The notes under the pieces: generated by a model
Told to the model about the DNA's origin: nothing
Seen by the model: the letters and a program-made list of their open reading frames with translations, nothing else
Database searches by the model: none
Shown: in pieces, positions 15,196-35,148 of the stretch
Numbering within the stretch: position 1 is the stretch's first letter
Layout of the letters: each line of letters opens with the position of its first letter
Source: Candidatus Colwellbacteria bacterium
Lineage (GTDB): Bacteria > Patescibacteriota > Minisyncoccia > UBA6257 > Colwellbacteraceae
DNA: 64,000 nt
Assembly: GCA_028710275.1 (NCBI GenBank)
Contig: JAQTUL010000007.1
Coordinates: 952-64,951, forward strand
Direction: 5' to 3'
Made by a program: the position numbers and the translations under genes

Positions 15196-15314
15196 AAAAT
15201 GGGCTGACCTGATACTGACAGGAATCCTATTTCATCAATAATTAACTTTCAGTGACAATAGATATCGCACTGTCCACATCCTCTGGCGGTCAGGCAATGC
15301 TATAATTAATCCAT

Positions 15315-16772: not shown

Positions 16773-16797
16773 ACCCGCCTGATGGCGGGTTTTTTTG
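16773..16797 (+). terminator. rho-independent terminator (ACCCGCC-tgatg-GCGGGT followed by T7)
   Basis: hairpin followed by TTTTTTT after the surface-protein gene; the ATG at 16782 lies inside it. Confidence 0.7.
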
Positions 16798-16853
16798 ATA
16801 TGGGTATCTTAGTGTTTGTATCATTTCCGTCTTTTGGTTTATCATCTTCATAT

Positions 16854-17333: not shown

Positions 17334-17543
17334 ATGGATATCCTATTCAGCAAGAAGCTCTATAAAGAAGAGGCGATAGACGCGGCGGCGGCCGCCTTCA
17401 GCGACGTGGCTGACATATTCATAACGGTTGGGCGCGATATCATAGGCGTTGGCATAAAAGGCTGCGCCGCGGAGGATAAGCCGCTTATACAGAGCGAGTT
17501 TTCCAATTACGTGCTTTCAGAAATGAGGAGGCCCATTATTTAG
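17334..17543 (+). CDS. small protein (69 aa), second HxsD-like candidate
   Basis: start abuts the previous stop (TAGATG); C-terminal EFSNYVLSEMRR again resembles an LLNDYxLRE-type motif. Confidence 0.35.
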   Translation: MDILFSKKLYKEEAIDAAAAAFSDVADIFITVGRDIIGVGIKGCAAEDKPLIQSEFSNYVLSEMRRPII

Positions 17544-17549
17544 ACTATT

Positions 17550-19040: not shown

Positions 19041-19179
19041 GAGGAGAAGAAACGATTGGTTTTATCAGATAAGAAACTTTGATCGATAAGCAGACTGTCG
19101 AAATCCACAGCTAGAAGATATACTTATACTGTATAATCAATTAAGTGTTCCATTTAAGCGAAAAACAAGGAATATTAAA

Positions 19180-21369: not shown

Positions 21370-22706
21370 CGGAAGAATTTAAAAAAGAGAATGATGCGGT
21401 CGCTGAATCCTTTATAAAGAGATATTTTATCGATCCCTGGAAAAGCGATGACAGGAAGGTGTGGGAGCACTCACGGAACTTTGAAGTCTTTTTTGGGACA
21501 AAGTGTCCTTTTGGCTGCAAATACTGTTACCTGAACAGAAAAGGGGATGATTTGTATCCGACCGATATCCAGAGAGACGATGTTCTTATAGCTAATATGG
21601 CTAAGGTGCTCGAGTGGATGAAGCGAGAGAATATGGCACCAAAAGGATTTTTATTCTTTTCCGGAGAACCCTTCGTCCAAGAGGCATGCATGAAGGCAAT
21701 AGATATGACGCTCGATGCCTTTGCTGAAAGTGAAAAAAAGCCGGAGCAGATAACGGTTCCGACCGGTTTTGGATTCATGTTCTACCCAGAAATGGTCGAG
21801 CGCGTCGAGAAACTGATGGAAAAATCCAGGCGTGTTGGGATACCAATACATCTAAGCGCCTCGATAGACGGTAAGCATTGCGAGCCAAACCGACCCTTCA
21901 AGGATCAGACGATTAAGCGGGATGATGAATTTTACGACAAGGCCTTCAGCTTTATGGCTAAGTGGAAGATCGGAGCCCATCCGATGATCTATTCGGACCT
22001 TATTGAGAATTGGAAGGATAATTGGAAATGGTTCCAAGAAAAATTCTTAAAACACGGGATACCTTTCTATAAGATATATCTTTTAGAGGTAAGAAACGCC
22101 GAATGGTCACCGGATCAGATTGGCCGATTCTCGGAGTTCATTGATTTTCTCATTGAATGGACATATGAAAAGGTTTTCAATAAGAACGCTGATCATACTT
22201 TGGATTTCATATTCAACCACGGCTTCAATCTTTTAAGAAACTCATTTCTAGAGGGTGATGGAAGAGGGATGAAATGCGCCCTCCAAGATTATATGTTCCT
22301 AAGGCTGGGAGACCTTGCCTGGGTACCTTGTCATCGAACCTCTTATGACCAATTCATCTTTGGGCGTTTCATCGAGAAAAACGGGAAAATAGACGGTTTT
22401 AGCTCCGATAATTCCGATCTTATTCCGGCCATCTATTCCATGAAGGGGGAGGATATGCCTTATTGCGAGAACTGTGCCATAAGAGACCTGTGTGTCCAAG
22501 GGTGTCTCGGAAGCCAATATGAGGCGACGGGAGACCTTTTTTCGCCTATACCGACCGTCTGTGAGTTGGAACACGTAAAAGTATTTACGATAATAAAAAC
22601 TCTCAAGAGGCTGGGTCTTATTGATAAGGCGACGGCATATATCCCTGAAAATAGAAGAAAAGCGTTTAAGAGGGTCTCTGATATGGTTCTGAATACGGTA
22701 AACTGA
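21366..22706 (+). CDS. radical SAM/SPASM enzyme (Hxs-system maturase candidate), translationally coupled to the preceding rSAM
   Basis: CPFGCKYCY cluster motif, FFSGEPF, canonical SPASM CX2CX5CX3C (CENCAIRDLCVQGC); 4-nt start/stop overlap. Confidence 0.8.
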   Translation: MTEEFKKENDAVAESFIKRYFIDPWKSDDRKVWEHSRNFEVFFGTKCPFGCKYCYLNRKGDDLYPTDIQRDDVLIANMAKVLEWMKRENMAPKGFLFFSGEPFVQEACMKAIDMTLDAFAESEKKPEQITVPTGFGFMFYPEMVERVEKLMEKSRRVGIPIHLSASIDGKHCEPNRPFKDQTIKRDDEFYDKAFSFMAKWKIGAHPMIYSDLIENWKDNWKWFQEKFLKHGIPFYKIYLLEVRNAEWSPDQIGRFSEFIDFLIEWTYEKVFNKNADHTLDFIFNHGFNLLRNSFLEGDGRGMKCALQDYMFLRLGDLAWVPCHRTSYDQFIFGRFIEKNGKIDGFSSDNSDLIPAIYSMKGEDMPYCENCAIRDLCVQGCLGSQYEATGDLFSPIPTVCELEHVKVFTIIKTLKRLGLIDKATAYIPENRRKAFKRVSDMVLNTVN

Positions 22707-22722
22707 TAGAATTGCCTTTGAT

Positions 22723-23253
22723 ATGGAGACAAAACCGGATATCCGAAAGATAAGGGTGGGCCTACAAAAAGTTAGGGACATATATGCCCTTAGGCGGGGT
22801 TTTACTGATATCCTCGAAGAAAAGATAAGCTCGGAACTCGATAAGGCACTCGGTACTGTTTCCGGACAGCTCGAAGCTTCATTCATTGACGAAGAAGTGA
22901 AGTCCGAGCCAATCGATGCTCCATGGCTAATAAAATTGACCAAGGCGATTGCCGACGCCTCTATTTATAGACAAATTGATGATCAGTTTGCTGATTTTGT
23001 ATCCGAATACTCCATGGTTGTGTCCGCCTGGAACGACCGAGTGGTTCGATCAAGTGAATTAACGAGAGAGCTTGCGGTTGCGGAATCCCTTGCAGTTAGT
23101 CGCCCGGCGATGATCCAAGCAGCAAAGGCACTAAGGGCTCTTTCTGAGAAGCTTATACAGCTTAACTTTATCGAAACCCCAGCTCTTAATATGAGTAAGT
23201 TCTATCTTGATTCGCTTCGGAAAAACTTGGAGAAGAAAGAAGAAAAAGAATAA
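22723..23253 (+). CDS. hypothetical alpha-helical protein between the Hxs-type module and the rSAM paralog array
   Basis: 176-aa ORF on the same strand, tightly packed; no recognisable family. Confidence 0.45.
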   Translation: METKPDIRKIRVGLQKVRDIYALRRGFTDILEEKISSELDKALGTVSGQLEASFIDEEVKSEPIDAPWLIKLTKAIADASIYRQIDDQFADFVSEYSMVVSAWNDRVVRSSELTRELAVAESLAVSRPAMIQAAKALRALSEKLIQLNFIETPALNMSKFYLDSLRKNLEKKEEKE

Positions 23254-23255
23254 AA

Positions 23256-24176
23256 ATGGAGAGAGTTGATATCAAGGTTGGATTCCAATGCAACAATCAT
23301 TGCATCTTCTGTATACAAGGCAACAAGAGGGAATACTGTAAGGACCGGACAGAAGATGAGATAAAGAAAATATTGGAACAGGGTCGGTCCGAAGGAAAGG
23401 AGGCGGTCGTTTTCACGGGCGGCGAGCCAACTTTTCGTCCGAAGCTTCTTCTTAATTGCGTCTCGTATGCAAGGGATATTGGTTATAGGGTCATACAGAT
23501 ACAATCTAATGGGAGGATGTTCGCATATCGGGCATATTGCGAGGAGATAGTCCGGGCGGGAGCTAATGAATTCTCTCCTGCGGTACATGGGTCGGTCGCC
23601 TCTATACATGACCGTCTCACAAACGCGCCCGGAAGTTTTGATCAGGTTACTGCTGGTATTCGAAATCTGAGAGAACTGAGACAATATATTCTTACCAATT
23701 CGGTGGTAACGAAAATAAATATGGAAGATATACCAAATCTAGCGAAGCTGTTGGTCGAGCTTAGGGTAGACCAGTTCCAGTTCGCTTTTATACATATAAA
23801 TCCGATTATTGCAGAAGACCAGAAGCTCATTGAAGAAGTGGTTCCCTCGATGGCCAAGGCCATGCCTTATGTGAAGGCTGGTCTCGATATAGGCCGGAAG
23901 TCGGGAGTTAAGTGCATGACTGAAGCAATTCCCTATTGCATGATGAGAGAGTACGAAGACCTTATCGCCGAGAGGATAATACCAGAAGCTCATGTCTTCG
24001 ATGCTGAGGAGGATATAGAGAAATACAGCGAGTACAGACAGAACGAAGGAAAATCAAAGGGGCCAAGGTGCGTTTCGGAGTGCATTAAGAACGACGTATG
24101 CGAGGGCCCATGGAGGGAATATCCGCAGCTTTTCGGCTGGGAAGAGTTTAAGCCGATAACCGAAGAAAAGATATGA
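23256..24176 (+). CDS. radical SAM enzyme, array paralog 1 (twitch/SPASM-like, MoaA/PqqE-type core)
   Basis: CNNHCIFC cluster motif, FTGGEPT, QSNGR, GSFDQ..GI.NL, C-terminal CVSECIKNDVCEGPW. Confidence 0.8.
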   Translation: MERVDIKVGFQCNNHCIFCIQGNKREYCKDRTEDEIKKILEQGRSEGKEAVVFTGGEPTFRPKLLLNCVSYARDIGYRVIQIQSNGRMFAYRAYCEEIVRAGANEFSPAVHGSVASIHDRLTNAPGSFDQVTAGIRNLRELRQYILTNSVVTKINMEDIPNLAKLLVELRVDQFQFAFIHINPIIAEDQKLIEEVVPSMAKAMPYVKAGLDIGRKSGVKCMTEAIPYCMMREYEDLIAERIIPEAHVFDAEEDIEKYSEYRQNEGKSKGPRCVSECIKNDVCEGPWREYPQLFGWEEFKPITEEKI

Positions 24177-25102
24177 AAAAGCAAGGAGTAATACTGCTAA
24201 GGTGGGCTAATAAATGTAATAACAACTGCGCGATGTGCAGTCTTCATTCAGGAGATAGTGAAGAGGAGGTTATGTCCATCGAAGAAGCGCTCGATTTCAC
24301 GAGAAAAAACGCGGCATCATATCAAAATATCGAGTTCACTGGAGGCGAGCCGACGATAAAGGAGGGTCTCGTCGATCTTGTCGCGGCAGCCAGAGAATCG
24401 GGATATGAGAGAATAGCTATAAGTACTAACGGCAGAAGGCTTTCTGATGAAAATTTTTGCCGTAAACTAATTGATAACGGTCTGAATGCTGTGACCTTCG
24501 CCCTCCATGGGCATGATGTGGAAACTCATGAAAAGAGGATGAGTAGATCGGATGGAGCTTTTAATGAGGCGATACGAGGTCTCAAAAACCTGATTACAGA
24601 ACATTCAGTGTCATTAAACGTCGCATCTGTTCTTGCAAGACATAACCACGAAACCTTCTCGGAGATTGGCAAGATGCTTATAGAGATGGGCGTTAAGCAA
24701 TGGAGTATATCGGACTTAATCCCGGACGGGAGGGCGCAGGATATATATGATTCACTAAGCCTCAGTCCTTCGGAGGCGGAAAAGGCAATAAGCGGCATTC
24801 TGCCTATGGCTGGTCAGATTGGGCTTGTTATATTTAATTTTTCAAGATGTTTTTTCCCGAGGGACCTTGATGACAGGATACTTTTCTTCGATACCAGAGA
24901 TAAAGCTGATCTTTGTAATATAGAGAGAAAGGAAGGCCGCTATGAGAAGGAGGGCGAAGTCTATCACGATTTTCATAAGACATATCTCGGGATATGCGAA
25001 AAATGTCCGGCATATGAGACATGCGGAGGAGTATGGAGAAGAAATATGGAGCTGTACGGAGAGGGGATAATGACCGAAGTAGCTAGAAGAAACGGTTTTT
25101 GA
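24173..25102 (+). CDS. radical SAM enzyme, array paralog 2
   Basis: CNNNCAMC, FTGGEPT, STNGRR, C-terminal CEKCPAYETCGGVW; ATGA overlap with paralog 1. Confidence 0.8.
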   Translation: MKKQGVILLRWANKCNNNCAMCSLHSGDSEEEVMSIEEALDFTRKNAASYQNIEFTGGEPTIKEGLVDLVAAARESGYERIAISTNGRRLSDENFCRKLIDNGLNAVTFALHGHDVETHEKRMSRSDGAFNEAIRGLKNLITEHSVSLNVASVLARHNHETFSEIGKMLIEMGVKQWSISDLIPDGRAQDIYDSLSLSPSEAEKAISGILPMAGQIGLVIFNFSRCFFPRDLDDRILFFDTRDKADLCNIERKEGRYEKEGEVYHDFHKTYLGICEKCPAYETCGGVWRRNMELYGEGIMTEVARRNGF

Positions 25103-25133
25103 TGCCGAGCTCTCCAAAAATAAAAAAAGACAT

Positions 25134-26075
25134 ATGAAAAAACCAGGAATGATATTCGTCAGATGGGCCAACAGATGCAATAACAATTGTGAGATGTGCA
25201 GTCTTCATTCTGACGACAGCAGAGATGAATCGATGTCGTTCGAAGAGGCGGCGGAGTTTACGATAAAAAACATCGATGAATATTCTAATATCGAGTTTAC
25301 GGGAGGCGAACCGACGATAAAGGAGGGCCTTTTAGAGCTTGTCGCTCTGGCGAAGAAGACGGGATACGATAAGATATGTATCAGTACTAACGGCAGAAGG
25401 CTTTCCGATGAAAATTTTTGCCACGCTCTCGCGGAGAACGGCTTGAACGTTGTGACATTTGCTCTTCATGGGCATAATGCTGAGACCCATGAGAGAATGA
25501 GCCGCGTTATCGGTTCTTTTGAAGAGTCGATGGAGGGAATAAAGAATGTTCTTAATGAACCAACGATGGCGCTTGCGATAACATCCGTCTTATCAAGACA
25601 TAACCACGAAACCTTCTCGGAGATTGGCAAGATGCTTATAGAGATGGGCGTTAAGCAATGGAGTATATCGGACTTAATCCCGGACGGGAGGGCGCAGGAT
25701 ATATATGATTCACTAAGCCTCAGTCCTTCGGAAATGGGGAAATCCCTAGCTGAGGCGATCCCTCTTTTTCCCGGTTTCTATCAGGTTGGGATATTTAATT
25801 TTTCAAGATGCTTTTTCCCAGAAGAACTCTATAGGAACGTTGCATTCTTTGATACGAAAGCAAAAGCTGATCTGTGGGATATAGAAGGTAAGGAGGGCCG
25901 CTATGAGAAGGAGGGCGAAGTTTATCACGATTTTCATAAGACATATCTCGGAATATGCGAAAAATGTCCGGCATATGAGACATGCGGAGGAGTATGGAAG
26001 AGAAGTCTGGAACTATATGGGCCTTCAGAAATGGAAAAAATAGCGAGGGTAAACGGTTTTGTGGAGACGGTGTAA
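25134..26075 (+). CDS. radical SAM enzyme, array paralog 3 (recent duplicate of paralog 2)
   Basis: CNNNCEMC, FTGGEPT, STNGRR; C-terminal half nearly identical to paralog 2, including 100%-identical nucleotide patches. Confidence 0.8.
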   Translation: MKKPGMIFVRWANRCNNNCEMCSLHSDDSRDESMSFEEAAEFTIKNIDEYSNIEFTGGEPTIKEGLLELVALAKKTGYDKICISTNGRRLSDENFCHALAENGLNVVTFALHGHNAETHERMSRVIGSFEESMEGIKNVLNEPTMALAITSVLSRHNHETFSEIGKMLIEMGVKQWSISDLIPDGRAQDIYDSLSLSPSEMGKSLAEAIPLFPGFYQVGIFNFSRCFFPEELYRNVAFFDTKAKADLWDIEGKEGRYEKEGEVYHDFHKTYLGICEKCPAYETCGGVWKRSLELYGPSEMEKIARVNGFVETV

Positions 26076-26096
26076 TATAGGATATAAATAAGACCA

Positions 26097-27074
26097 ATGG
26101 AAAAGACAGTATTCATACAATTGAACTCAACGTGCAATCAGCACTGTCTTTTTTGTAATAGGCCGCCGCAATCGGAAAGGAGCCCGGAATATCTAACCTT
26201 CGAACAAGTAATAAAAAAGATAGATGAGTGCGCTGATGATCCGGAGATAATAAGAGTGTGTCTCACCGGAGGGGAGCCGACCTTATATCCGCGTCTTGTT
26301 GAGGCGGTTACCCGTTGTCACGAGAGAGGCAAGCATGTGGAGATACAGACGAACGGGGTTGCCCTAACAAAGGAAAGAATAAAGGAATTGAAAGACGCAG
26401 GCATAGATATAATAAACTTTGCGTTCCATAGTCATAAGAAGGAAATAAGCAACAGGCTGAGAGGTGTCGATTTCGGTTTTGAGAACATAACCGAATCGAT
26501 AAAGGAGGCTAACCGTCTCGGAATAGTGATTCATATAGTGCATGTCATAACGAAGCTGAACTATAAGGATCTACCGGAGTTTATAGACACTTTTTCAGAT
26601 ATGGGACTTGATCTGCCAAAGATGTTCCTTAATCTTTCAATAGTCGTTCCGGATGGATGGGCCTGGGAGAATAAGGATGTGATCGTCCCAAGGATGTCTG
26701 ATATAAAGCCTTATCTAATCGAAGCCTGCCATAAATGCAAAGAATATGGGATAACCTTCGATATTTCGGAGGTGGTTCCGCTGTGCATAGTGGATGGGTA
26801 TGAGGATATGGCGATATCGACGGTCTTCAAGATAAACAACGCTGTTATAGTCGATGATTACCATACAGGTAAAAAATCCCTCGAGTTTGCCGCTGCTGAC
26901 GAGAGCTGGGCTATGAAGGCTCCCCAATGCGTAAAATGTTCCATGAACGAAATATGTGTCGGATTCTACCCTCATCTTTCTGAGATGTACGGCTTCGAAG
27001 ATTATGTTCCGAGAACGGATGATCCGGCCGAGATAATAAGCCGATTTAAGGGACCAGAAGATGACAGGCAATAA
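26097..27074 (+). CDS. radical SAM enzyme, array paralog 4
   Basis: CNQHCLFC, LTGGEPT, QTNG, C-terminal CVKCSMNEICVGFY. Confidence 0.8.
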   Translation: MEKTVFIQLNSTCNQHCLFCNRPPQSERSPEYLTFEQVIKKIDECADDPEIIRVCLTGGEPTLYPRLVEAVTRCHERGKHVEIQTNGVALTKERIKELKDAGIDIINFAFHSHKKEISNRLRGVDFGFENITESIKEANRLGIVIHIVHVITKLNYKDLPEFIDTFSDMGLDLPKMFLNLSIVVPDGWAWENKDVIVPRMSDIKPYLIEACHKCKEYGITFDISEVVPLCIVDGYEDMAISTVFKINNAVIVDDYHTGKKSLEFAAADESWAMKAPQCVKCSMNEICVGFYPHLSEMYGFEDYVPRTDDPAEIISRFKGPEDDRQ

Positions 27075-28035
27075 TAGAGACAATCAAGGTTTTCCAGAGA
27101 GGATCTGCGTCGTGATGACAGGCTTTTCGTGCAACAACAACTGCATCGTCTGCAGCGTTAGGCCTTACGGACGAAATAATCAGGATAGAGAAACGGCTGA
27201 CATAATAAGATCGATGGAGGAGGGAAGAAATAATGGTATTCCGGGAGTCGAGTTCACCGGAGGCGAACCGACCATGAGAAGAGATATTCTTGCCCTTATA
27301 TCGAAAGCGAAGGAGCTTGGCTATAAGGAAATAGCTTTAAGTACCAATGCAAGAGCATTCGGATACGAGAAGTTCGCGGATGCCGCGATAGAGAGCGGAC
27401 TTAATAGGGTTACGTCCACTATCGACGGTCACAGCGCAGTAGCTCATGATGCGCTGACGAGGACGCCTGGATCATTTGATCAGACGATACAAGGCATAAA
27501 GAATCTCGTTGCCCGCGGGATGAGAATCAGCGTCAATACGGTATTCTGTAAGATGACCGCGCCGAACCTATCTGACATAGGCCGGACCATAACCGATCTC
27601 GGAGTACCCGTGTGGGGAATATTAGACCTGATTCCGGACGGTAATATAGCGGAGATATATCCCGATTTCGTAGTCACTCTTAATGATACATACACCGCTC
27701 TTGATTCCATATATGATATAGCGAGGGAAATAGACCACGTTAATCTCTTTGATTTTCCTATTTGCGCCATACCGGAAAGACTTCGGATATCAAAGCATGC
27801 GGCGGTTTTTGATGCCTTTTCGCGTTCTGATCTTCTGAAGCAGACGGGTTATGACCCTCAGAGGTTCACTGAGGTGGAAGGAAATTACAGCGATATATAT
27901 AAGACGAGACTTAATGGATGCTTATCCTGCCTTAAGAAAGAGGATTGCGCCGGGATATGGAACAGATATATTGACGTTTATGGTAAGGAGGGCGCGGAAG
28001 ATTTCATCACGGACCATAAGGTAGGGAAACAATAA
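27061..28035 (+). CDS. radical SAM enzyme, array paralog 5
   Basis: CNNNCIVC, FTGGEPT, STNAR, TPGSFDQTIQGIKNL, C-terminal CLSCLKKEDCAGIW; 14-nt overlap with paralog 4. Confidence 0.8.
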   Translation: MTGNNRDNQGFPERICVVMTGFSCNNNCIVCSVRPYGRNNQDRETADIIRSMEEGRNNGIPGVEFTGGEPTMRRDILALISKAKELGYKEIALSTNARAFGYEKFADAAIESGLNRVTSTIDGHSAVAHDALTRTPGSFDQTIQGIKNLVARGMRISVNTVFCKMTAPNLSDIGRTITDLGVPVWGILDLIPDGNIAEIYPDFVVTLNDTYTALDSIYDIAREIDHVNLFDFPICAIPERLRISKHAAVFDAFSRSDLLKQTGYDPQRFTEVEGNYSDIYKTRLNGCLSCLKKEDCAGIWNRYIDVYGKEGAEDFITDHKVGKQ

Positions 28036-28051
28036 GGTTGCTGAATCTTAA

Positions 28052-29266
28052 ATGGAGAACAATATCAAAAAGATAGAGGAAATATGTAAGGACAAGAAGA
28101 TAGAACGCAACACCGGCAGTGAAGGCGCTAACAAGGTTATCTATCTCAATCTTGGGGCCCAATGCAATCAGAACTGTAATTTTTGTCTTATAAAAGGGAG
28201 TGAGGGTAATTTTCCATTCATGCCTCTCGTTGAAGCAAAAAGGATAATAAAGGATTTTGCCGAGAGTGGCGGAGAGATGCTTATGATAACAGGAGGCGAG
28301 CCGACTCTCTATCCCGAACTGGATGAGGTTATAGCCTTTGCGGATCTTTTTCCGGGAATAAAACAGGTTTCCATATTAACGAACGCGACCGCCTTTGCCG
28401 ATGGGCTATACACTGAGAAGATAATAGGACGAGATAAATCTAATAAGCTTGGATTTTCGGTCTCCTTTCATTCTCATATCGCAGAAGTCTCGGATAAGAT
28501 AACTCAGGGAATGCCGGGGGATTACGGAAGGACGGTCTCCGGCCTTGCTAATATATCCAAATGGAACAGACAAATATCCGTCTATCACGCGATAGTCTCA
28601 GATAATTTCAATCTCCTTCCTGATTTCGTCGAATGGATAAATGTTAATTTTCCGAACATAAATTCGGTTGTGATGGCTTATCCTTTTCCTCAAGGGAACG
28701 CTGATAAGAATTCCTGGATATACGTTAAATTTACGGAGCTTAAACCTTATTTACTGAAAGCGCTGCATTTTCTTAGAGAAAAAAATATCAGTTCTAATAT
28801 AGCGACCTGCGGACAATTTCCATTATGTATCATACCCGAGTTTGAGGAAAAGGTGCTGAACATGCTGATATTTTTCAGAAAGAATGTCGCGGGTACTGTC
28901 GGTAAAGACGTTTTTCATGAGACGGAATGGTCATCGGAGAAATGGATAAATAACTATAAGAATAAATCTCCTCAGTGTGACCAATGTATCCTTAATGAAG
29001 TTTGTCAGGGCTTTTGGAAAAAATACACGGACATATTTGGTTTTGACGGGGTATCTCCGGTTACCAGGAAGACTTTTGAGGGAAATATCGTCAAGATTGA
29101 TCTCAATACCGAAAATGTCTTTGATCGCGTGATGGCGAGGATATTATGGGAGAGGTTAAACCTTATAATAGCGAAAGGGGACGATGTGATGATATCTAGG
29201 CTGAAGGATGCTCTTGCGGACAATGGAGTTCCGGCAGTTGTGATAAGGGATGACGAAGAGGTCTAA
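28052..29266 (+). CDS. radical SAM enzyme, array paralog 6 (longer, 404 aa, with N- and C-terminal extensions)
   Basis: CNQNCNFC, ITGGEPT, C-terminal CDQCILNEVCQGFW. Confidence 0.75.
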   Translation: MENNIKKIEEICKDKKIERNTGSEGANKVIYLNLGAQCNQNCNFCLIKGSEGNFPFMPLVEAKRIIKDFAESGGEMLMITGGEPTLYPELDEVIAFADLFPGIKQVSILTNATAFADGLYTEKIIGRDKSNKLGFSVSFHSHIAEVSDKITQGMPGDYGRTVSGLANISKWNRQISVYHAIVSDNFNLLPDFVEWINVNFPNINSVVMAYPFPQGNADKNSWIYVKFTELKPYLLKALHFLREKNISSNIATCGQFPLCIIPEFEEKVLNMLIFFRKNVAGTVGKDVFHETEWSSEKWINNYKNKSPQCDQCILNEVCQGFWKKYTDIFGFDGVSPVTRKTFEGNIVKIDLNTENVFDRVMARILWERLNLIIAKGDDVMISRLKDALADNGVPAVVIRDDEEV

Positions 29267-29292
29267 AAAGGACTTGGGAAAAGATACATAAA

Positions 29293-30267
29293 ATGGATAT
29301 AACCGAGGCATACAAGAAGATACACGATATAACCGCGGCCATACCGATAAACGGGGAGGAAATATTAGGTGTTTACATAGGGATAAAGCCGGCGATGGCC
29401 GAGGCAAATACTGGGATATACAACGCTGATTTTCTAAGGAAGATGAGCGTAGTGAACTCTATATGCGGAGAGCTGGGTCTGAAGCTTGCTGTGTCGAAAT
29501 ATAAGTACGTCATAAATAGCCCAAGAGGCATATTTAAGGAGGTATTAAGAGACGACCCGGCGCCCGGATGTTTAATAATAGGTATAGCGAGAGATATGGA
29601 GAAGGCAGTAAGCGGCGTTGCTCATTATCATCTCAAGATGCATCATAGCAAGTATGGAAGGAGCTTCGCTGAGCTTATGGGATATCCTTCCTGTTGTATA
29701 GATTTTGGCGACTATCTCGCCAACAATAAAGGTGATCCGGATAATTTCGGGTTCAAAAATCCGGCAATTGAGGTACTCAAGAGGTCGGATAAAGTTGCCT
29801 GGCAGTTAAACGTTTTTTCTACATCTTCAATGCTTTCGCATTTTCCTTGCAGTTATACCTGCAAGAAGAGTATTGATTATATGAACTCTCTATTAGGCGC
29901 TATAAAGGAGGCCGATCTAGAACATGGCAGGGTGGTGGAAGATAACCTAAAACAGGATATTTCAGTATATTGGAGCTGTGTAGATAAGGTGATGCTTCGC
30001 GGAGATTTTATAAAAAAGGACTCGCTTTTCAGGGAAGGGGAGGCTAGATACGAGAGTATAAAATGGCCGATAGGATCAGAAAACTTTTATCAGGAGGTGG
30101 ACAGCGAGTATCTAGACGGGATGAAGACTATATGGAGGTCGATGGGGGAAGGAGACTGTATAAAGATATCAAAGAACAGCGTTTCAGTATTCAAGGGTGA
30201 TGATGAGATAGGACTTTTCGAGAAAGATAGCCAGTATTCACCGGTAATAGTAAGAGCCGATGCCTGA
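29293..30267 (+). CDS. hypothetical Cys/His-containing protein embedded in the rSAM array (not a radical SAM)
   Basis: 324-aa ORF lacking CxxxCxxC; HYHLKMHH, PSCCIDFGDY, FPCSYTCKK; 8-nt overlap with the next rSAM. Confidence 0.5.
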   Translation: MDITEAYKKIHDITAAIPINGEEILGVYIGIKPAMAEANTGIYNADFLRKMSVVNSICGELGLKLAVSKYKYVINSPRGIFKEVLRDDPAPGCLIIGIARDMEKAVSGVAHYHLKMHHSKYGRSFAELMGYPSCCIDFGDYLANNKGDPDNFGFKNPAIEVLKRSDKVAWQLNVFSTSSMLSHFPCSYTCKKSIDYMNSLLGAIKEADLEHGRVVEDNLKQDISVYWSCVDKVMLRGDFIKKDSLFREGEARYESIKWPIGSENFYQEVDSEYLDGMKTIWRSMGEGDCIKISKNSVSVFKGDDEIGLFEKDSQYSPVIVRADA

Positions 30268-31114
30268 CGAAAAAGATTTCATAAGCCCATACGTATATGT
30301 AGGTTTTCATTGCAATAATAATTGCATTTTTTGCAGTGAGGCTGATGAATATCTAGACGGAAGATTAGAGAAGGACTTTGATGATATCAAACATGAGATA
30401 GACCTTGTGAGGACCGGATACGATTTTGTAAATCTGATGGGTCGTGAGCCCACTCTCAGAAAGGATATCCTTTCCGTGGTTTCTTATGCGAAGAGTGTCG
30501 GTTTTAGACAGGTTGGCCTTACGACGAATGCCAGGATGTTATCGTACGCTCCTTTTGCTGAGGCTATCATAGGGTCTGGATTAAACCAGATAGGAATATC
30601 TCTTCTCGGCGCGACGGCCAAAACCCATGACCTTCTTTCGGCTGCTGAAGGGAGTTATGCTCAGACGATTGAAGGCATAAAGAATGTGATGAGATTTAAG
30701 GGGCCGGACCTGAGTGTTCTCGTAAACATCCCCCTTAACAGAAAGAACGTGTCCGAGCTGGAGGATGAGATAGATCTTCTAATATCTCTAGGGGTGAAAG
30801 AGATAAACGTGTTGTGGGTAGCCCCTCTTAGCCGAAGATCCAGGGATAAGGAACTTATCGGAAGGATGAGTGAACTCGGAAACCATGCTGCCAGGATTAT
30901 AAAAAATCATTTAGGAGAGGCAAAGTTTCTGATGGTCGAGTTCCTTCCTTGTAGCCTAAAAAAAGAATATAGAGATATGTTCTTTCCGTGCCTTGAGAAA
31001 AATCCGTCAAAAATAAGAATAACTTTATGTGGCGGATGTCCCTACGTCGACAAATGCGACGGAGTCCTTTCAAGCTATATTGATATGTACGGCGATGAAG
31101 AGTTTGAAATATAG
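30260..31114 (+). CDS. radical SAM enzyme, array paralog 7
   Basis: CNNNCIFC, GREPT, TTNAR, GSYAQTIEGIKNV, C-terminal CGGCPYVDKCDGV. Confidence 0.8.
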   Translation: MPDEKDFISPYVYVGFHCNNNCIFCSEADEYLDGRLEKDFDDIKHEIDLVRTGYDFVNLMGREPTLRKDILSVVSYAKSVGFRQVGLTTNARMLSYAPFAEAIIGSGLNQIGISLLGATAKTHDLLSAAEGSYAQTIEGIKNVMRFKGPDLSVLVNIPLNRKNVSELEDEIDLLISLGVKEINVLWVAPLSRRSRDKELIGRMSELGNHAARIIKNHLGEAKFLMVEFLPCSLKKEYRDMFFPCLEKNPSKIRITLCGGCPYVDKCDGVLSSYIDMYGDEEFEI

Positions 31115-31214
31115 GACCAGGTCTTCTTTATTGTGGATAGTGTTGTTTCAAAACGCCTGGTGTTAACATATAATCAATACATAAACCAAAAGAAAGCCTT
31201 TAAATAAAATAAAA

Positions 31215-31754: not shown

Positions 31755-31773
31755 TTACCTATGGTGATAAGAG

Positions 31774-31802
31774 CCGACTCGATTAACTCGAGTCGGTTTT
31801 TT
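31774..31802 (+). terminator. rho-independent terminator inside the rSAM array (CCGACTCGA-ttaac-TCGAGTCGG followed by T6)
   Basis: perfect 9-bp stem followed by TTTTTT; followed by a TATAAT-like box at 31825..31832. Confidence 0.7.
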
Positions 31803-31838
31803 GTCCTTTTCTGTATCTCTTGTATATAATTCCGACTA

Positions 31839-32816
31839 ATGCCCCCAGATATAATAAAGAAAACAGTCGTATTTGCCGGATACAGATGTAACAACAACTG
31901 CCGGTTTTGTATGGAAGCTGATAAGAGAGATTTGCCTGTGAGGGGTACTGCTGTAATCAAGGGCGAGCTTAAATCAGCTAGAGAAAGGGGGTCTGATTAT
32001 ATCGAGATTATCGGAGGGGAGGCCGCAATGAGGTCTGACATAACATCAATCATCTCCTATGCCAAGGATTTGGGCTTTTCGACCATTATGATGGCTACGA
32101 ACGGCAGAATGTTTTCCTATCCGGAACTTACAAAGCGGCTCATCGATGCTGGGCTTAATAGCCTTGTTTTCTCGATACATGGAGCCGATGCGGAGACTCA
32201 TGACTACCTCACTCGGTCGCCTGGCAGTTTCGATCAATTGATAGTCGGGATGGAGAATGTGAAAAATGCGGCTATTATCTCGGGAGCCAGAATATCGCTG
32301 GGGTCGAATACCTGCATAGTAAAGGATAATTACCGTCAGCTTCCGGCAATCAGTGAGCTTATAGCTTCTTCTGGCGTTGGGAATTCAGAGTTTATATTCG
32401 TAGACTGCAACGAGGGAGGGGCGAAGAACAGTTTTGATGAGCTCGTTCCGAAGATATCTGACGCAGCTCCTTATATGAGAGAGTGTCTTGATATCGGAAA
32501 CAGAAATAAGGCTGATCATTGGGATGTCAGATATGTGCCCTTATGCTATTTTCCGGATCATCTGAATAGGATAAGTGAATTACATGAGGCAAAGACCTTT
32601 CATACGGAACATATCGCCCAGGATTTCGTGAATACCGATGCGCAAAGCGGTCGCAAGAATGTAGGGAGGAGAAAATCAAGAAGGTGTTCCGAGTGTATTC
32701 TCGACCCATGGTGTGAGGGAATATGGAGAACATATATCTCACGCTATGGAGATGATGAGCTTATTCCCATTACTGAGCTGACAGTTGGTCAAAAAGAGAT
32801 GCTTGATGGGCTCTAA
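31839..32816 (+). CDS. radical SAM enzyme, array paralog 8
   Basis: CNNNCRFC, IGGEAA, ATNGRMFSY, SPGSFDQLIVGMENV, C-terminal CSECILDPWCEGIW. Confidence 0.8.
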   Translation: MPPDIIKKTVVFAGYRCNNNCRFCMEADKRDLPVRGTAVIKGELKSARERGSDYIEIIGGEAAMRSDITSIISYAKDLGFSTIMMATNGRMFSYPELTKRLIDAGLNSLVFSIHGADAETHDYLTRSPGSFDQLIVGMENVKNAAIISGARISLGSNTCIVKDNYRQLPAISELIASSGVGNSEFIFVDCNEGGAKNSFDELVPKISDAAPYMRECLDIGNRNKADHWDVRYVPLCYFPDHLNRISELHEAKTFHTEHIAQDFVNTDAQSGRKNVGRRKSRRCSECILDPWCEGIWRTYISRYGDDELIPITELTVGQKEMLDGL

Positions 32817-32858
32817 TTCCGATATTTCGGGCAAAATGGTATCATTTACGAAATAGTC

Positions 32859-33056
32859 ATGGAAAAAGAGTACATAATCACCTATAGGAGCGAAGAGCAT
32901 TTTGAAGTTGTTGGTTGGGTAAAGGCCGAGTCTATGGAAGAGGCCAAAGAGCTGGCCAGAAACGTGCTCGCCAAAGAAGCGTCTTTTTATGGCGTGACCG
33001 AGGCAGAGATAGCCGAATACGGAACGTCGGAGACGATGAGCTTCGAAGAGAAGTAA
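32859..33056 (+). CDS. small acidic protein (65 aa), candidate precursor peptide or partner protein, TAATG-coupled to the next rSAM
   Basis: ORF ends with TAA overlapping the ATG at 33056; highly acidic, no Cys. Confidence 0.4.
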   Translation: MEKEYIITYRSEEHFEVVGWVKAESMEEAKELARNVLAKEASFYGVTEAEIAEYGTSETMSFEEK

Positions 33057-33985
33057 TGGATGTCTGCGTCTGGAACAGGTGCAATAACAGGTGTGTTATG
33101 TGTACTAATCCCGAAGGTTTCGGGGACGTTTCTTTGAGTGGACCTTATTCTTATGAGGGGGTTCTTTCGAGGGTATTAAGGATAAAAGACATTCCCGATT
33201 CGGCTGCTGAGGCTATATGTCTTACCGGAGGTGAGCCGACCTCCCATCCTGAGTTTCTAAGATTGGTCTCAACAATCAAGAGGGAGCTTCCTAATAATCA
33301 GCTAATACTTGCCACGAATGGCAGAATGTTCGCATATGAGGAGTTTGCCAGAAAATATCTTGCAATCGGTAGCTCGAAGATAGAAATACCGATACATGGA
33401 TCAGAGGCCAGACTCCATGATGCCATAACGTGCGTGAAGGGAAGTTTTGAACAGACTATCCAGGGGATAGAAAACATATTGAAGTACATGTCATTTGAGC
33501 ATGAGCTCGAAATAAGACTTGTTCTTACAAAGATAAATTTACATGATACGCGGGCGATACTGGATCTTGTTAAAGAAAGTTTTCCAAGGATAACCAGAGT
33601 GGTAGTGATATTCCCTGAATTCGAGGGTATGTGCGCCAAGAATATGGAGGTGGTCGGGCTTAAATATTCGGATGTTAAGGAGGAGATGACGGGATTGATA
33701 TCCGAATGGAAAGAATCTTTCGATGGTTTAAGCCTATATCATTTCCCATTATGTTCCCTTCCGGTCGGCCTTTGGGGATATGCCTGGAGGACATTGAGAG
33801 GGAATGAGATAATGTTTCCTGAACAATGTAATGGGTGCCGTTTTAAAAAATATTGTCTGGGCGTACACGTAGATTATGCCAAACTTATAGGTACAGATGA
33901 GTTTATGCCTCCGACAGGGAATATAAAGATAAAAGAGAATAATGGTCCGGATAGGGAATATCACCCGATAATCGAAGCTATATAA
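33056..33985 (+). CDS. radical SAM enzyme, array paralog 9 (start set at Met48 of the longer track ORF)
   Basis: CNNRCVMC, LTGGEPT, ATNGRMFAY, GSFEQTIQGIENI, C-terminal CNGCRFKKYCLGVH; the upstream in-frame extension is Arg-rich junk overlapping the small ORF. Confidence 0.75.
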   Translation: MDVCVWNRCNNRCVMCTNPEGFGDVSLSGPYSYEGVLSRVLRIKDIPDSAAEAICLTGGEPTSHPEFLRLVSTIKRELPNNQLILATNGRMFAYEEFARKYLAIGSSKIEIPIHGSEARLHDAITCVKGSFEQTIQGIENILKYMSFEHELEIRLVLTKINLHDTRAILDLVKESFPRITRVVVIFPEFEGMCAKNMEVVGLKYSDVKEEMTGLISEWKESFDGLSLYHFPLCSLPVGLWGYAWRTLRGNEIMFPEQCNGCRFKKYCLGVHVDYAKLIGTDEFMPPTGNIKIKENNGPDREYHPIIEAI

Positions 33986-33996
33986 AATAATCAACA

Positions 33997-35148
33997 ATGG
34001 GAATAACGATATTTTTGGCAGCTCCCGCGCTCATATTAATAGGGGTGATATCCTCTTATACCGATCTTAAGTACGGTCGCATACCTAATTGGTTGATAAT
34101 ATTCGGTTTTGTGTATGCTATCTGCCTGTATTCTTTCCTATTCGGATACAATGCTTTCTTTCTTCATCAAGCGGTAAACGGGGCATATATTTTAAAGGCT
34201 TTACAGAACACAGCAATCGCCTTTGTCTCTGGGGTTATATTATGGAAAATGAGTTTCTGGTCAGCTGGCGATGCCAAGCTTTTTGCTGTCTATGCGGCTA
34301 TTCTTCCGCTAGAAGCCTATATGAATGGATACGTTGATCAGTTTCCCTCCTTTAATCTCCTGGTAAATCTTTTCTTTCCACTGGTACTAGTTCTTATAAT
34401 AAAGGCTATCTGGTTTGCTATTAAAACATGGTTTCCGTTAATCAAAAACGGTTCATGGAAAGAAGAGATAAAGATAAAAGACATACCGATGATGGCATTG
34501 AAGGGCGCATTAGCCCTTCTTAAGTTATTTGGTAACTTCTTCTTCATGTACCTTATCTTTATGACGGTTGGGCAGATAGTATCTTTCATCTCTCATGGGA
34601 CATTCAAGATAGATCCTTTCATAATGTATTTTGGAATATTAGCCATCATGGGAAGGTTCAATGCGATACAGAAAAAATATAAACTAGCAAAGTTCGGGGT
34701 ATATTCTATATCTGCCGGATATCTAACTTATCTCCTTATTCTCGCTCAATACGCGACTCTCAGAAAGATGATTGTGATGGCTCTAGTATTCATGGTCGCG
34801 ATAACAGTGACCAGGAAGATTCTTGATATATATATTCAAAAAGCCGAAATAAAAGAAGTTGTAGTCAAAAGCCTCGTCCGAGGGACAATGCTTCATTCAT
34901 CTGAGATGTCTGCCATAAAGAATGAGCTAGTGGAGAACGGAAGAGGGGAGGAATTCGGTTGGTTCGAGCCCGGCGGACTAAAAGAATCACAGGTTCTGAT
35001 AATAAAAGAGATCTTTTCTGATAGGGAAGAAACGATATTTAGGGCATATAGAACCTTTCCATTCGCTCCTTTCCTATCCCTTTCGGTAATTATAACCATG
35101 ATAACCGGGATATCGTTCATAAAATATTTTCAGGTATTCATGAAATAA
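33997..35148 (+). CDS. polytopic membrane protein with N-terminal A24 prepilin-peptidase-like (TadV/CpaA/FlaK-type) aspartic protease domain plus a long C-terminal extension
   Basis: first Asp motif YTDLKYGRIPNWL (D...RIPN) and second Asp motif SAGDAKLFA (GxGD-like) in TM helices; about 8 TM helices in total. Confidence 0.55.
   Translation: MGITIFLAAPALILIGVISSYTDLKYGRIPNWLIIFGFVYAICLYSFLFGYNAFFLHQAVNGAYILKALQNTAIAFVSGVILWKMSFWSAGDAKLFAVYAAILPLEAYMNGYVDQFPSFNLLVNLFFPLVLVLIIKAIWFAIKTWFPLIKNGSWKEEIKIKDIPMMALKGALALLKLFGNFFFMYLIFMTVGQIVSFISHGTFKIDPFIMYFGILAIMGRFNAIQKKYKLAKFGVYSISAGYLTYLLILAQYATLRKMIVMALVFMVAITVTRKILDIYIQKAEIKEVVVKSLVRGTMLHSSEMSAIKNELVENGRGEEFGWFEPGGLKESQVLIIKEIFSDREETIFRAYRTFPFAPFLSLSVIITMITGISFIKYFQVFMK

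What the first reader, a model, noticed from the sequence alone, without database searches (positions are those of the whole stretch)
32859..33056. 65-aa acidic ORF translationally coupled (TAATG) to the last rSAM paralog: candidate precursor or partner protein
Seen in sequence: the ORF MEKEYIITYRSEEHFEVVGWVKAESMEEAKELARNVLAKEASFYGVTEAEIAEYGTSETMSFEEK ends with TAA overlapping the ATG of the rSAM gene at 33056. It is strongly acidic, rich in Tyr/Glu/Thr, and lacks Cys. Inference: small ORFs coupled to rSAM maturases are often precursor peptides or recognition-element-like chaperones. The automated track extended the rSAM upstream through an Arg-rich out-of-frame stretch, so this ORF would be masked in routine annotation.
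Basis: partly seen in the sequence, partly recalled or inferred. Interest (0 to 1): 0.6.

Follow-up and report, generated by a model that had tools for sequence, protein, structure and literature searches.

The report
Conserved small protein beside HxsC maturase
The 65-codon ORF is a real, conserved gene for a small folded protein that sits just upstream of a radical-SAM enzyme in an expanded His-Xaa-Ser (HXS) cluster of a candidate-phyla-radiation bacterium. It looks like an accessory subunit rather than a peptide precursor, but its function is untested.

Summary
The ORF at 32859-33056 exists as described, and its TAA overlaps the ATG of a 309-aa radical-SAM gene. It is a real gene. dN/dS against two relatives is 0.035-0.053, the competing rSAM-extension frame is closed in both relatives, and at least 224 homologues of 62-81 aa exist, none of the 120 listed carrying a Pfam domain. 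GenBank already annotates it (MDD4931123.1, hypothetical protein), so it is not masked.

The locus is a His-Xaa-Ser system, recently shown to be antiphage. HxsD, HxsB and an HxsA4-type repeat protein pass curated cut-offs. Eleven further radical-SAM genes follow; the last, at 33056, is the best HxsC match.

The family occurs only inside such clusters of Patescibacteria and Omnitrophota. The usual order is rSAM, small ORF, HxsC-like, A24-type peptidase, with stop-to-start gaps of -1 to +18 nt in 42 of 47 loci.

AlphaFold gives a compact beta-beta-alpha-beta fold (pLDDT 94). It shows no detectable relation to RRE/PqqD, HxsD, the N-terminal domain of canonical HxsC, or PaaB.

Best reading (about 0.5): a stoichiometric accessory or adaptor subunit of the HxsC-peptidase module that matures HxsA. 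The precursor reading is disfavoured but not excluded. Interest is moderate.

The parts
32859..33056 (+). Small ORF, 65 aa (GenBank MDD4931123.1, hypothetical protein PHG66_03130). Founding member here of an undescribed 62-81-aa family.
   Evidence: establish the ORF and its GenBank record. dN/dS is 0.035-0.053. At least 224 homologous clusters exist. Invariant residues are Y5 Y9 S11 E13 H14 E16 A23 A29 Y44 E53. The AF2 model has pLDDT 94.4 with a beta-beta-alpha-beta fold.
33054..33058 (+). TAATG stop/start overlap between the small ORF and the rSAM gene.
   Evidence: Read directly. The same junction is present in L001 and L002. Family-wide, the stop-to-start gap is -1 to +18 nt in 42 of 47 unique loci.
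33056..33985 (+). HxsC-like radical-SAM enzyme, 309 aa, short form lacking the roughly 90-aa N-terminal domain of canonical HxsC. CX3CX2C at residues 9-16, plus a C-terminal Cys cluster.
   Evidence: The best NCBIfam hit is TIGR03977 HxsC, 175.7 bits against a cut-off of 267.9, covering profile positions 30-288 of 292. Pfam PF04055 scores 68 bits. The N-terminus M(P/A)DICVWNRCNN is conserved across orthologues. The AF2 model has pLDDT 94.2, and its closest PDB fold is the RiPP maturase SkfB at E 1e-9.
33997..35148 (+). A24-family (prepilin-peptidase-like) polytopic membrane protein, third gene of the conserved module.
   Evidence: Pfam PF01478 scores 36.4 bits against a cut-off of 26.5. It lies within 1.5 kb downstream of the small ORF in 37 of 45 assessable loci.
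31839..32816 (+). HxsC4-like rSAM paralogue ('C4_8'), the usual upstream neighbour of the small ORF.
   Evidence: NF038332 scores 151.7 bits against a cut-off of 500. It is the upstream neighbour in 56 of 88 family members, or 28 of 48 de-duplicated clusters.
32837..32845 (+). TGGTATCAT, an extended -10-like motif 13 nt upstream of the small-ORF ATG. No Shine-Dalgarno sequence is present.
   Evidence: TGnTATCATT is invariant in the window, L001 and L002 within an otherwise diverged intergenic region. It is not seen in more distant family members. Function is not tested.
31769..31830 (+). Strong terminator-like hairpin (31769-31801) followed by a promoter-like TTGTCC-18-TATAAT (31801-31830). 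This is the probable start of the transcription unit C4_8 - small ORF - HxsC - A24.
   Evidence: Consensus scan only.
16782..20055 (+). Core HXS genes that define the system: HxsD (16782-17333), HxsB (17550-19040) and the HxsA4-type His-Xaa-Ser repeat protein (19180-20055).
   Evidence: All three pass curated cut-offs: TIGR03976 62 bits (cut-off 50), TIGR03978 475.9 bits (cut-off 370), NF038313 101.4 bits (cut-off 55).
20089..31114 (+). Two further rSAM/SPASM genes (20089-22706), a 176-aa ORF with no Pfam hit, seven HxsC4-like rSAM paralogues (23256-29266 and 30260-31114) and a weak DUF483-like gene (29293-30267). C4_8 at 31839-32816 is the eighth paralogue.

Best explanation
The ORF encodes a small, stably folded cytoplasmic protein that is a dedicated accessory component of a Patescibacteria/Omnitrophota variant of the His-Xaa-Ser (HXS) maturation system.

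It is made from the same mRNA as the N-terminally truncated HxsC-type radical-SAM enzyme and the A24-type peptidase. Translation is tightly coupled, by stop/start overlap or a gap of a few nucleotides, which would give roughly equimolar amounts.

The proposed role is a stand-alone adaptor subunit. It would bind HxsC-like, which has no substrate-recognition domain of its own, and/or the conserved leader of the HxsA repeat protein. That would help present HxsA for radical-SAM modification and leader removal. This is the job done by HxsD in the E. coli HXS system and by discrete RRE proteins in RiPP pathways, but with an unrelated fold.

Shown: the gene is real and under strong purifying selection; it is specific to these clusters; the junctions are tight; the predicted fold is compact.

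Inferred: physical binding to HxsC-like or HxsA, and any effect on maturation.
For: 1. Real gene. dN/dS is 0.035-0.053, differences are concentrated at third codon positions, and the alternative frame is closed in the relatives.

2. Cluster specificity. Of 88 family members sampled, partly by the small ORF itself, the downstream neighbour is HxsC-like in 58, A24 in 7, another Hxs-type rSAM in 11 and HxsA in 4. After de-duplication, 31 of 47 are followed by HxsC-like. In 33 of 45 assessable loci both HxsC-like and A24 follow. There are no viral copies and no second copy in the window.

3. Junctions. The gap is -1 to +18 nt in 42 of 47 loci, which leaves no room for an attenuator or separate regulation. 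TAATG is conserved in the three closest loci.

4. Fold. pLDDT is 94.4 with a beta-beta-alpha-beta topology, and conservation runs along the whole chain. By strand periodicity, the invariant Y5/Y9/E16 with L18/W20 should lie on one sheet face, a candidate interaction surface (the facing is inferred, not read from coordinates).

5. The rSAM lacks any N-terminal recognition domain. All orthologues start M(P/A)DICVWNRCNN. Its closest solved fold is SkfB; from prior knowledge, SkfB carries its own N-terminal RRE.

6. Precedent. E. coli HxsC pulls down the small protein HxsD, and HxsB, HxsC and HxsD are all needed for HxsA processing (PMC13128918).

7. The cognate substrate HxsA is encoded in the same cluster, with a conserved leader.

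8. Weak support: small-protein divergence tracks HxsC (Pearson r = 0.76) and A24 (0.82) more than the upstream rSAM (0.51). This rests on 19 loci, and the Spearman values (0.44, 0.62, 0.47) do not favour HxsC over the upstream rSAM.
Against: - There is no direct evidence of binding.
- No natural fusion of this domain to an rSAM or any other domain was found. The family members among the 1.84 billion representatives and the 120 hits listed are stand-alone.
- The small ORF is absent from many orthologous short-HxsC clusters. These include other Patescibacteria (L010, L012, L013, L014, L016, L036) and all Elusimicrobia sampled. It is therefore not generally required by short HxsC enzymes.
- In about a third of lineages it is not next to HxsC-like but next to A24, HxsA or another rSAM.
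- HxsD is also present in this window, so the small ORF does not simply replace it.
- There is no homology to any known adaptor.
Confidence: 0.5

Rival explanations
1. RiPP-like precursor or protein substrate. The small protein is itself modified by the adjacent HxsC-like radical-SAM enzyme, and perhaps processed or exported with help of the downstream A24 peptidase. The gene order would then read precursor, maturase, peptidase.
For: - It is adjacent to an rSAM whose closest solved folds are peptide or protein maturases, SkfB and anSME.
- The gene order small, rSAM, peptidase resembles a RiPP cassette.
- There is an invariant polar/aromatic cluster, Y5 Y9 S11 E13 H14 E16, that could be a modification site.
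- There is a marginal hit to TIGR04031, 'Htur_1727 family rSAM-partnered candidate RiPP' (E = 0.077, 13 bits).
Against: - The whole chain is a compact fold (pLDDT 94.4) and is conserved end to end. There is no leader/core split, no cleavage motif and no hypervariable core.
- It is single copy.
- The coupling is stoichiometric, without the strong separate expression typical of precursors.
- It has no hydrophobic segment or G|F-type site for an A24 peptidase, whereas HxsA does have a prepilin-like leader.
- HxsA is already the cognate substrate class (PMC13128918).
- The TIGR04031 hit is far below its 57.2-bit cut-off and recurs in only 2 of 51 members.
- The ORF is absent from many orthologous HxsC clusters.
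Confidence: 0.15
2. Cluster-specific protein with another role that does not involve binding HxsC. Candidates are a chaperone or solubility factor for the His-rich HxsA, a partner or regulator of the A24 peptidase, or a small regulator.
For: - Linkage to A24 (37 of 45) is as strong as linkage to HxsC (34 of 45).
- In some lineages it directly precedes A24 or HxsA with no HxsC-like gene between.
- E. coli HxsA is insoluble when expressed alone (PMC13128918).
- JGI labels one homologue 'predicted transcriptional regulator', and there is a weak hit to phrog_278 (E = 0.083).
Against: - No HTH or RHH signature and no significant family hit.
- Acidity, which would suit binding a basic His-rich protein, is not conserved in the family: median pI is 6.1.
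- The commonest arrangement by far is immediately upstream of HxsC-like.
Confidence: 0.25
3. Split-off N-terminal domain of HxsC. Canonical HxsC proteins (362-378 aa) carry about 90 residues before the CX3CX2C motif. Here that domain would be encoded separately.
For: The length difference between the long (362-378 aa) and short (about 309 aa) forms is roughly the size of the small ORF. The TIGR03977 profile match starts only at position 30.
Against: - Profile-profile comparison of the family with the N-terminal domains of seven long HxsC proteins gives probability 0.2%.
- Short HxsC-like enzymes without any small ORF are widespread.
- No fused form of this domain exists among the family members seen.
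Confidence: 0.04
4. Not a gene. The ORF would be a chance reading frame, or the true product would be an N-terminally extended rSAM (the 356-aa TTG-start ORF).
For: The mechanical ORF list contains a 356-aa TTG-start ORF, 32915-33985, that overlaps it. No Shine-Dalgarno sequence lies upstream of the small ORF.
Against: - dN/dS is 0.035-0.053 in the small-ORF frame, against 1.5-10 in the other two frames.
- The extension frame is closed after 2 and 15 codons in the relatives.
- There are at least 224 homologues.
- All HxsC-like orthologues start at the short N-terminus.
- The ORF is annotated in GenBank.
Confidence: 0.01

Closest known systems
HxsD (TIGR03976), the small protein of the canonical HXS antiphage system (Li et al. 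2026, PMC13128918)
   Same: Both are small cytoplasmic proteins encoded in a His-Xaa-Ser cluster. HxsD binds HxsC in pull-downs and is needed for HxsA processing. That is the role proposed here for the small ORF.
   Different: There is no sequence relationship: hhalign probability is 0.5%, and the TIGR03976 model is not among the NCBIfam hits for the small ORF or its family. A bona fide HxsD is encoded separately in this window at 16782-17333. The small ORF is therefore an addition, not a replacement.
Discrete RiPP recognition elements (PqqD PF05402, MftB) and the N-terminal RRE of SkfB
   Same: These are small proteins or domains that partner with radical-SAM peptide maturases, often translationally coupled, and present the substrate leader. 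The HxsC-like enzyme here lacks any such domain, and its closest solved fold is SkfB.
   Different: From prior knowledge, RREs are winged-helix domains with three strands then three helices. This protein is predicted as beta-beta-alpha-beta. PqqD is not among the Pfam families listed for the 51 members scanned, although only the top 25 of 42 were shown.
PaaB, small bridging subunit of phenylacetyl-CoA oxygenase (PDB 3egr, 4iit)
   Same: It is the best Foldseek hit to the model: similar size and an overall small alpha/beta fold. PaaB is a non-catalytic subunit that binds larger partners.
   Different: The match is not significant: E = 0.1, TM about 0.5, rmsd 3.7-4.9 A. Profile comparison with two PDB PaaB sequences gives probability 0.3%, with a score inside the range of shuffled controls. 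No Pfam PaaB hit appears. The resemblance is generic at most.
Htur_1727 family rSAM-partnered candidate RiPP (TIGR04031)
   Same: It is a protein family of about 70 aa defined by adjacency to a radical-SAM gene.
   Different: The score is 13 bits against a cut-off of 57.2, and the hit recurs in only 2 of 51 family members. This is noise level.

Membership tests
His-Xaa-Ser (HXS) system (for the locus) | HxsA His-Xaa-Ser repeat protein | tested here: met
   Gene 19180-20055 scores 101.4 bits on NF038313 HxsA4 (cut-off 55). Long SHGSHGSHSSH repeats are visible in the translation.
His-Xaa-Ser (HXS) system (for the locus) | HxsB radical SAM/SPASM maturase | tested here: met
   Gene 17550-19040 scores 475.9 bits on TIGR03978 (cut-off 370).
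His-Xaa-Ser (HXS) system (for the locus) | HxsD small protein | tested here: met
   Gene 16782-17333 scores 62 bits on TIGR03976 (cut-off 50).
His-Xaa-Ser (HXS) system (for the locus) | HxsC radical SAM maturase scoring above the curated cut-off | tested here: not met
   Gene 33056-33985 has TIGR03977 as its best hit, but at 175.7 bits against a cut-off of 267.9. It lacks profile positions 1-29 and the canonical N-terminal domain. It is HxsC-like, not an equivalog.
RiPP precursor peptide (generic) | Bipartite leader/core organisation with a variable core and/or a cleavage motif, and mostly disordered before modification | tested here: not met
   Conservation runs along the whole chain with no leader/core split. 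The AF2 model is compact, with pLDDT 94.4 and no low-confidence segment.
RiPP precursor peptide (generic) | Covalent modification by the adjacent maturase | not testable with these tools
   This needs co-expression and mass spectrometry.
RRE / PqqD-like recognition element (PF05402) | Sequence match to PqqD/RRE models and a winged-helix topology of three strands then three helices | tested here: not met
   No PqqD hit for the window protein, and none among the top 25 of 42 families listed for the 51 members. The predicted topology is beta-beta-alpha-beta.
HxsD / HxsD-like (TIGR03976, NF038315) | HMM match; LYW and LLNDYxLRE motifs | tested here: not met
   Neither model is among the NCBIfam hits. 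hhalign against an alignment of HxsD matches taken from the window and the fetched loci gives probability 0.5%. The motifs are absent from the family alignment.
Htur_1727 rSAM-partnered candidate RiPP (TIGR04031) | Score at or above the 57.2-bit cut-off | tested here: not met
   13 bits, E = 0.077, and only 2 of 51 members hit.
PaaB (PF06243) | Sequence or profile similarity and a significant structural match | tested here: not met
   Foldseek gives E = 0.1 and TM about 0.5. hhalign probability is 0.3%, within shuffled controls.
Canonical HxsC N-terminal domain | Profile similarity to the roughly 95 residues preceding CX3CX2C in long HxsC proteins | tested here: not met
   hhalign probability is 0.2%.
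Stoichiometric partner subunit of HxsC-like rSAM (functional class) | Physical complex with the enzyme | not testable with these tools
The only evidence is indirect: gene order, junctions and co-divergence.

The most novel reading that the evidence does not exclude
The small protein is itself the target of radical-SAM chemistry. It would be a folded 65-residue protein whose invariant Tyr/Ser/Glu/His cluster (Y5, Y9, S11, E13, H14, E16) is cross-linked or otherwise modified by the coupled HxsC-like enzyme. The product would be a protein-derived cofactor or a new kind of modified mini-protein effector, acting alongside HxsA in a candidate-phyla-radiation variant of an antiphage system.
Probability: 0.12. 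Interest if true: 0.7.

Novelty: new variant of a known kind. Interest (0 to 1): 0.4.

Why it matters
The HXS system was shown only in 2026 to be an antiphage defence. In it, two radical-SAM enzymes and a small protein mature a His-Xaa-Ser repeat effector. Its chemistry, its maturation complex and its leader protease are all unresolved (PMC13128918).

The Patescibacteria/Omnitrophota variants seen here are much larger. They carry about a dozen rSAM genes, add a dedicated A24-type peptidase, and in one subclade add this undescribed small protein.

If the small protein is an adaptor for a minimal HxsC, co-expressing it might make in-vitro reconstitution of HxsC chemistry easier. It would also add a non-RRE fold to the list of proteins that partner with radical-SAM maturases.

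On present evidence it is a conserved hypothetical protein with a well-defined genomic niche. It is worth a family definition and one co-expression experiment. It is not a surprise.

Tried and rejected
- **Split HxsC N-terminal domain.** Rejected: hhalign probability 0.2%, and short HxsC genes without the ORF are common.
- **Distant HxsD paralogue.** Rejected: hhalign probability 0.5%.
- **PaaB homology.** Suggested by the top Foldseek hit and by an alignment made by eye. Rejected: hhalign probability 0.3%, with the score inside 30 shuffled controls.
- **Htur_1727 candidate-RiPP family.** Noise: 13 bits, 2 of 51 members.
- **Weak Pfam hits.** BTB_2 (24 of 51 members, best E 2.6e-5, only the C-terminal part of the profile) and DUF1543 (13 of 51). 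For the window protein BTB_2 scores 14.3 bits, below its 21.4-bit cut-off. These were treated as helix-motif noise.
- **Archaeal ribosomal protein L18Ae/LX.** E = 0.32 by profile search. This is the same generic small alpha/beta motif and carries no functional meaning.
- **Other libraries.** PADLOC and PHROGs gave nothing for the small ORF. Rfam gave nothing on 32500-33400. There are no homologues in viral contigs.
- **Features of HxsC-like that co-vary with the small ORF.** The N-terminus and the C-terminal 'YHPI' tail were examined, and neither discriminates.
- **Mirror-tree correlation.** Weak and not decisive.

Full report
**Observation**

The window holds an ATG-to-TAA ORF at 32859-33056 (+) encoding exactly the 65 residues quoted. 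Its TAA (33054-33056) shares one base with ATG 33056-33058. That ATG opens a 309-aa protein beginning MDVCVWNRCNNRCVMC, which carries a CX3CX2C radical-SAM motif at residues 9-16. The protein has no Cys and 16 Glu, with pI 4.46.

An ORF of this size is not remarkable in itself: 102 ORFs of at least 40 aa overlap the 24-42 kb region. Whether it is a gene therefore depends on comparative evidence.

**Is it a gene?**

Yes. A word-indexed search found the identical protein in GenBank and two close homologues with 91% and 84% identity. Both homologues lie in the same position, between a 325-aa-type rSAM and the HxsC-like rSAM, and both keep the TAATG junction.

Between the three loci, dS is at or near saturation (about 1.5 or more) while dN is 0.06-0.10. 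This gives dN/dS of 0.035-0.053 for the two window comparisons; the third pair is too saturated to estimate. Between 27 and 34 of 34-44 differences fall at third codon positions. The other two frames give dN/dS of 1.5-10.

The Arg-rich upstream extension of the rSAM frame, which is the 356-aa TTG-start ORF in the mechanical list, is closed after 2 and 15 codons in the relatives. Every HxsC-like orthologue examined starts with the same short N-terminus, M(P/A)DICVWNRCNN.

GenBank annotates the small ORF as MDD4931123.1 (hypothetical protein PHG66_03130, Candidatus Colwellbacteria) and the rSAM as the 309-aa MDD4931124.1.

**What the locus is**

Curated NCBIfam models identify three core genes, all above their cut-offs:
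- HxsD at 16782-17333: 62 bits, cut-off 50.
- HxsB at 17550-19040: 476 bits, cut-off 370.
- An HxsA4-type His-Xaa-Ser repeat protein at 19180-20055: 101 bits, cut-off 55.

Downstream lie the following genes:
- Two further rSAM/SPASM genes.
- Eight HxsC4-like rSAM paralogues at 23256-32816. The two scored against NCBIfam reach 148-152 bits, far below the 500-bit cut-off.
- The small ORF.
- The rSAM at 33056.
- An A24-family membrane peptidase at 33997-35148.

The rSAM at 33056 has HxsC (TIGR03977) as its best match, at 175.7 bits against a cut-off of 267.9 and covering profile positions 30-288. It is HxsC-like but lacks the roughly 90-residue N-terminal domain of canonical 362-378-aa HxsC proteins.

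Its AlphaFold model is confident (pLDDT 94.2). The closest solved fold is the RiPP maturase SkfB, followed by MoaA, BlsE and anSME.

The HXS system was shown in 2026 to be an antiphage defence (PMC13128918). That study reported the following:
- HxsB, HxsC and HxsD mature HxsA by N-terminal processing and a +8 Da modification.
- HxsC pulls down the small protein HxsD.
- 99.7% of systems are in Pseudomonadota.
- More than 99.8% of systems consist of just the four genes.

**The small-protein family**

A full HMMER scan of 1.84 billion representatives found only about six clusters at 50% identity. All are stand-alone proteins of 62-108 aa. A profile search of the 5.8-billion-protein set gave 224 clusters. 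The 120 listed are 62-81 aa, none has a Pfam domain, and the named ones are all 'hypothetical protein' from Colwell-, Nealson- and Pacebacteria or Omnitrophota.

Y5, Y9, S11, E13, H14, E16, A23, A29, Y44 and E53 are invariant across 51 diverse members. The strong acidity of the window protein is not a family trait: the median pI is 6.1.

No Pfam, NCBIfam, PHROGs or PADLOC model matches meaningfully. The TIGR04031 'candidate RiPP' hit is 13 bits and recurs in only 2 of 51 members.

**Genomic niche**

Two sets of loci were examined: 80 genome loci fetched by the rSAM, and 80 metagenome loci fetched by the small ORF itself. Together with the three loci found first, they contain 88 family members. 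Immediate downstream neighbours are:

| Downstream neighbour | Members (of 88) |
|---|---|
| HxsC-like | 58 |
| A24 peptidase | 7 |
| Another Hxs-type rSAM | 11 |
| HxsA | 4 |
| Nothing recognisable | 3 |
| Contig end | 5 |

The upstream neighbour is the C4_8-type rSAM in 56 of 88. After de-duplication to 48 clusters, 31 of the 47 assessable are followed by HxsC-like.

Of 45 loci with enough downstream sequence, 37 have the A24 gene and 34 have HxsC-like within 1.5 kb, and 33 have both. The conserved unit is therefore rSAM - small ORF - HxsC-like - A24 peptidase.

The gap from the small-ORF stop to the HxsC start is -1 to +18 nt in 42 of 47 unique loci.

The small ORF is confined to the HxsC-like subclade closest to the window. 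It is absent from other Patescibacteria (L010, L012, L013, L014, L016, L036), where the upstream rSAM abuts HxsC-like directly, and from all Elusimicrobia sampled. It has no viral copies and only one copy in the window.

**Structure**

With a 51-sequence alignment, AlphaFold gives pLDDT 94.4 and the topology beta(3-10)-beta(15-23)-alpha(26-43)-beta(50-54).

From strand periodicity, Y5, I7, Y9, E16, L18 and W20 should share one sheet face, with S11, E13 and H14 in the hairpin turn.

Foldseek found no significant PDB or BFVD neighbour. The best hit is PaaB (E = 0.1, TM about 0.5), and archaeal L18Ae/LX also appears. Profile comparisons are negative in every case:

| Compared with | hhalign probability |
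|---|---|
| PaaB (score within shuffled controls) | 0.3% |
| HxsD | 0.5% |
| N-terminal domain of long HxsC | 0.2% |

**Interpretation**

The best-supported reading is a dedicated accessory subunit of the HxsC-like/A24 maturation module, made in step with the enzyme. It most likely acts as an adaptor, for four reasons:
- The enzyme has no recognition domain of its own.
- Its structural relatives are peptide and protein maturases.
- E. coli HxsC is known to use a small partner.
- HxsA in these clusters has a strongly conserved leader that something must recognise.

I put this at about 0.5. Binding is entirely inferred. The ORF is dispensable in many sister clusters.

The precursor/substrate reading (about 0.15) draws on the cassette-like order and the invariant polar cluster. 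It is disfavoured by the compact fold, end-to-end conservation, single copy, stoichiometric coupling, and the presence of HxsA as the cognate substrate.

A different cluster-specific role, such as HxsA chaperone, A24 partner or regulator, gets about 0.25. The split-domain and not-a-gene readings are effectively refuted.

**Novelty and interest**

The gene is already in GenBank as a hypothetical protein, but the family is undescribed and its exclusive link to expanded HXS-type clusters appears to be unreported. I file it as a new variant of a known kind: a small accessory protein of a radical-SAM maturation system with a fold unrelated to RRE or HxsD.

A specialist would find it useful rather than surprising. 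Interest is 0.4.

Noticed in passing
window 33997-35148: An A24-family (prepilin-peptidase-like) membrane protein follows HxsC-like in most loci. The sequences YTDLKYGRIP and SAGDAKL in its translation look like the two catalytic-Asp motifs (my own reading, untested). HxsA proteins of these clusters share a conserved leader: M..K(L/I)PKIKKNI.DFL.SEEGKISKK..(L/I)G, then a hydrophobic helix, which is prepilin-like. This enzyme is a candidate HxsA leader peptidase. In E. coli the protease that processes HxsA is unknown (PMC13128918).
   Followed up: partly
window 20089-32816: The rSAM investment is very large for a candidate-phyla-radiation genome. Besides HxsB there are two rSAM/SPASM genes and eight HxsC4-like paralogues in tandem, plus a weak DUF483-like gene (29293-30267, below the Pfam cut-off) and two ORFs with no Pfam hit (22723-23253 and 31215-31754). 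More than 99.8% of canonical HXS systems have only four genes.
   Followed up: partly
window 24173-25102 and 25134-26075: Two adjacent HxsC4-like paralogues are 70% identical and share long stretches of identical residues. One runs from HNHETFSEIGKMLIEMGVKQWSISDLIPDGRAQDIYDSLSLSPSE, another from EGRYEKEGEVYHDFHKTYLGICEKCPAYETCGGVW. This suggests recent duplication or gene conversion.
   Followed up: partly
window 19180-20055: HxsA here consists largely of (S/G)H(G/S)SH repeats with dozens of His-Xaa-Ser units, against five in E. coli HxsA, and ends in a Cys-containing tail. The overlapping ORFs 19298-19990 (+) and 19322-19858 (-) are repeat-driven artefacts.
   Followed up: no
window 35243-35422 and 35446-37814: A single-cluster 4Fe-4S ferredoxin (59 aa) and a two-subunit 2-oxoacid:ferredoxin oxidoreductase lie directly downstream. 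Ferredoxin, oxidoreductase or both recur there in L001, L003, L004, L005 and L121. They could supply low-potential electrons to the radical-SAM enzymes.
   Followed up: no
window 32837-32845: TGGTATCAT (extended -10-like, TGnTATCAT) lies 13 nt upstream of the small-ORF ATG. It is invariant in the window, L001 and L002 while the rest of the intergenic region has diverged, and there is no Shine-Dalgarno sequence. This could be an internal promoter giving a very short leader. It is not seen in distant family members.
   Followed up: partly
window 31769-31830: A 14-bp-stem terminator-like hairpin with a T tract (31769-31801) is immediately followed by TTGTCC-18-TATAAT (31801-31830) ahead of the C4_8 rSAM. 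This is the likely boundary of the transcription unit C4_8 - small ORF - HxsC-like - A24.
   Followed up: no
L009 893-6930: In one relative the small ORF is separated from HxsC-like by about 5 kb. The intervening genes are a GT2 glycosyltransferase, a 464-aa rSAM, a PMT_2-like glycosyltransferase and a weak DUF483-like gene. The window also has a GT2-family membrane protein at 13115-14647 upstream of HxsD. Together these hint at glycosylation in these clusters.
   Followed up: partly
L001 548-1456: The JGI gene call starts the HxsC-like rSAM at an ATG inside its CX3CX2C motif, giving 302 aa. The conserved TAATG start is at 506, so this is a start-site mis-call in a public record.
   Followed up: yes
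window 14695-16760: Upstream of HxsD lie a cupredoxin-like protein with an N-terminal hydrophobic segment (14695-15195) and a 481-aa protein with an N-terminal hydrophobic segment, no Pfam match and a Cys-rich C-terminus (15315-16760). Any relation to the HXS cluster is unknown.
   Followed up: no
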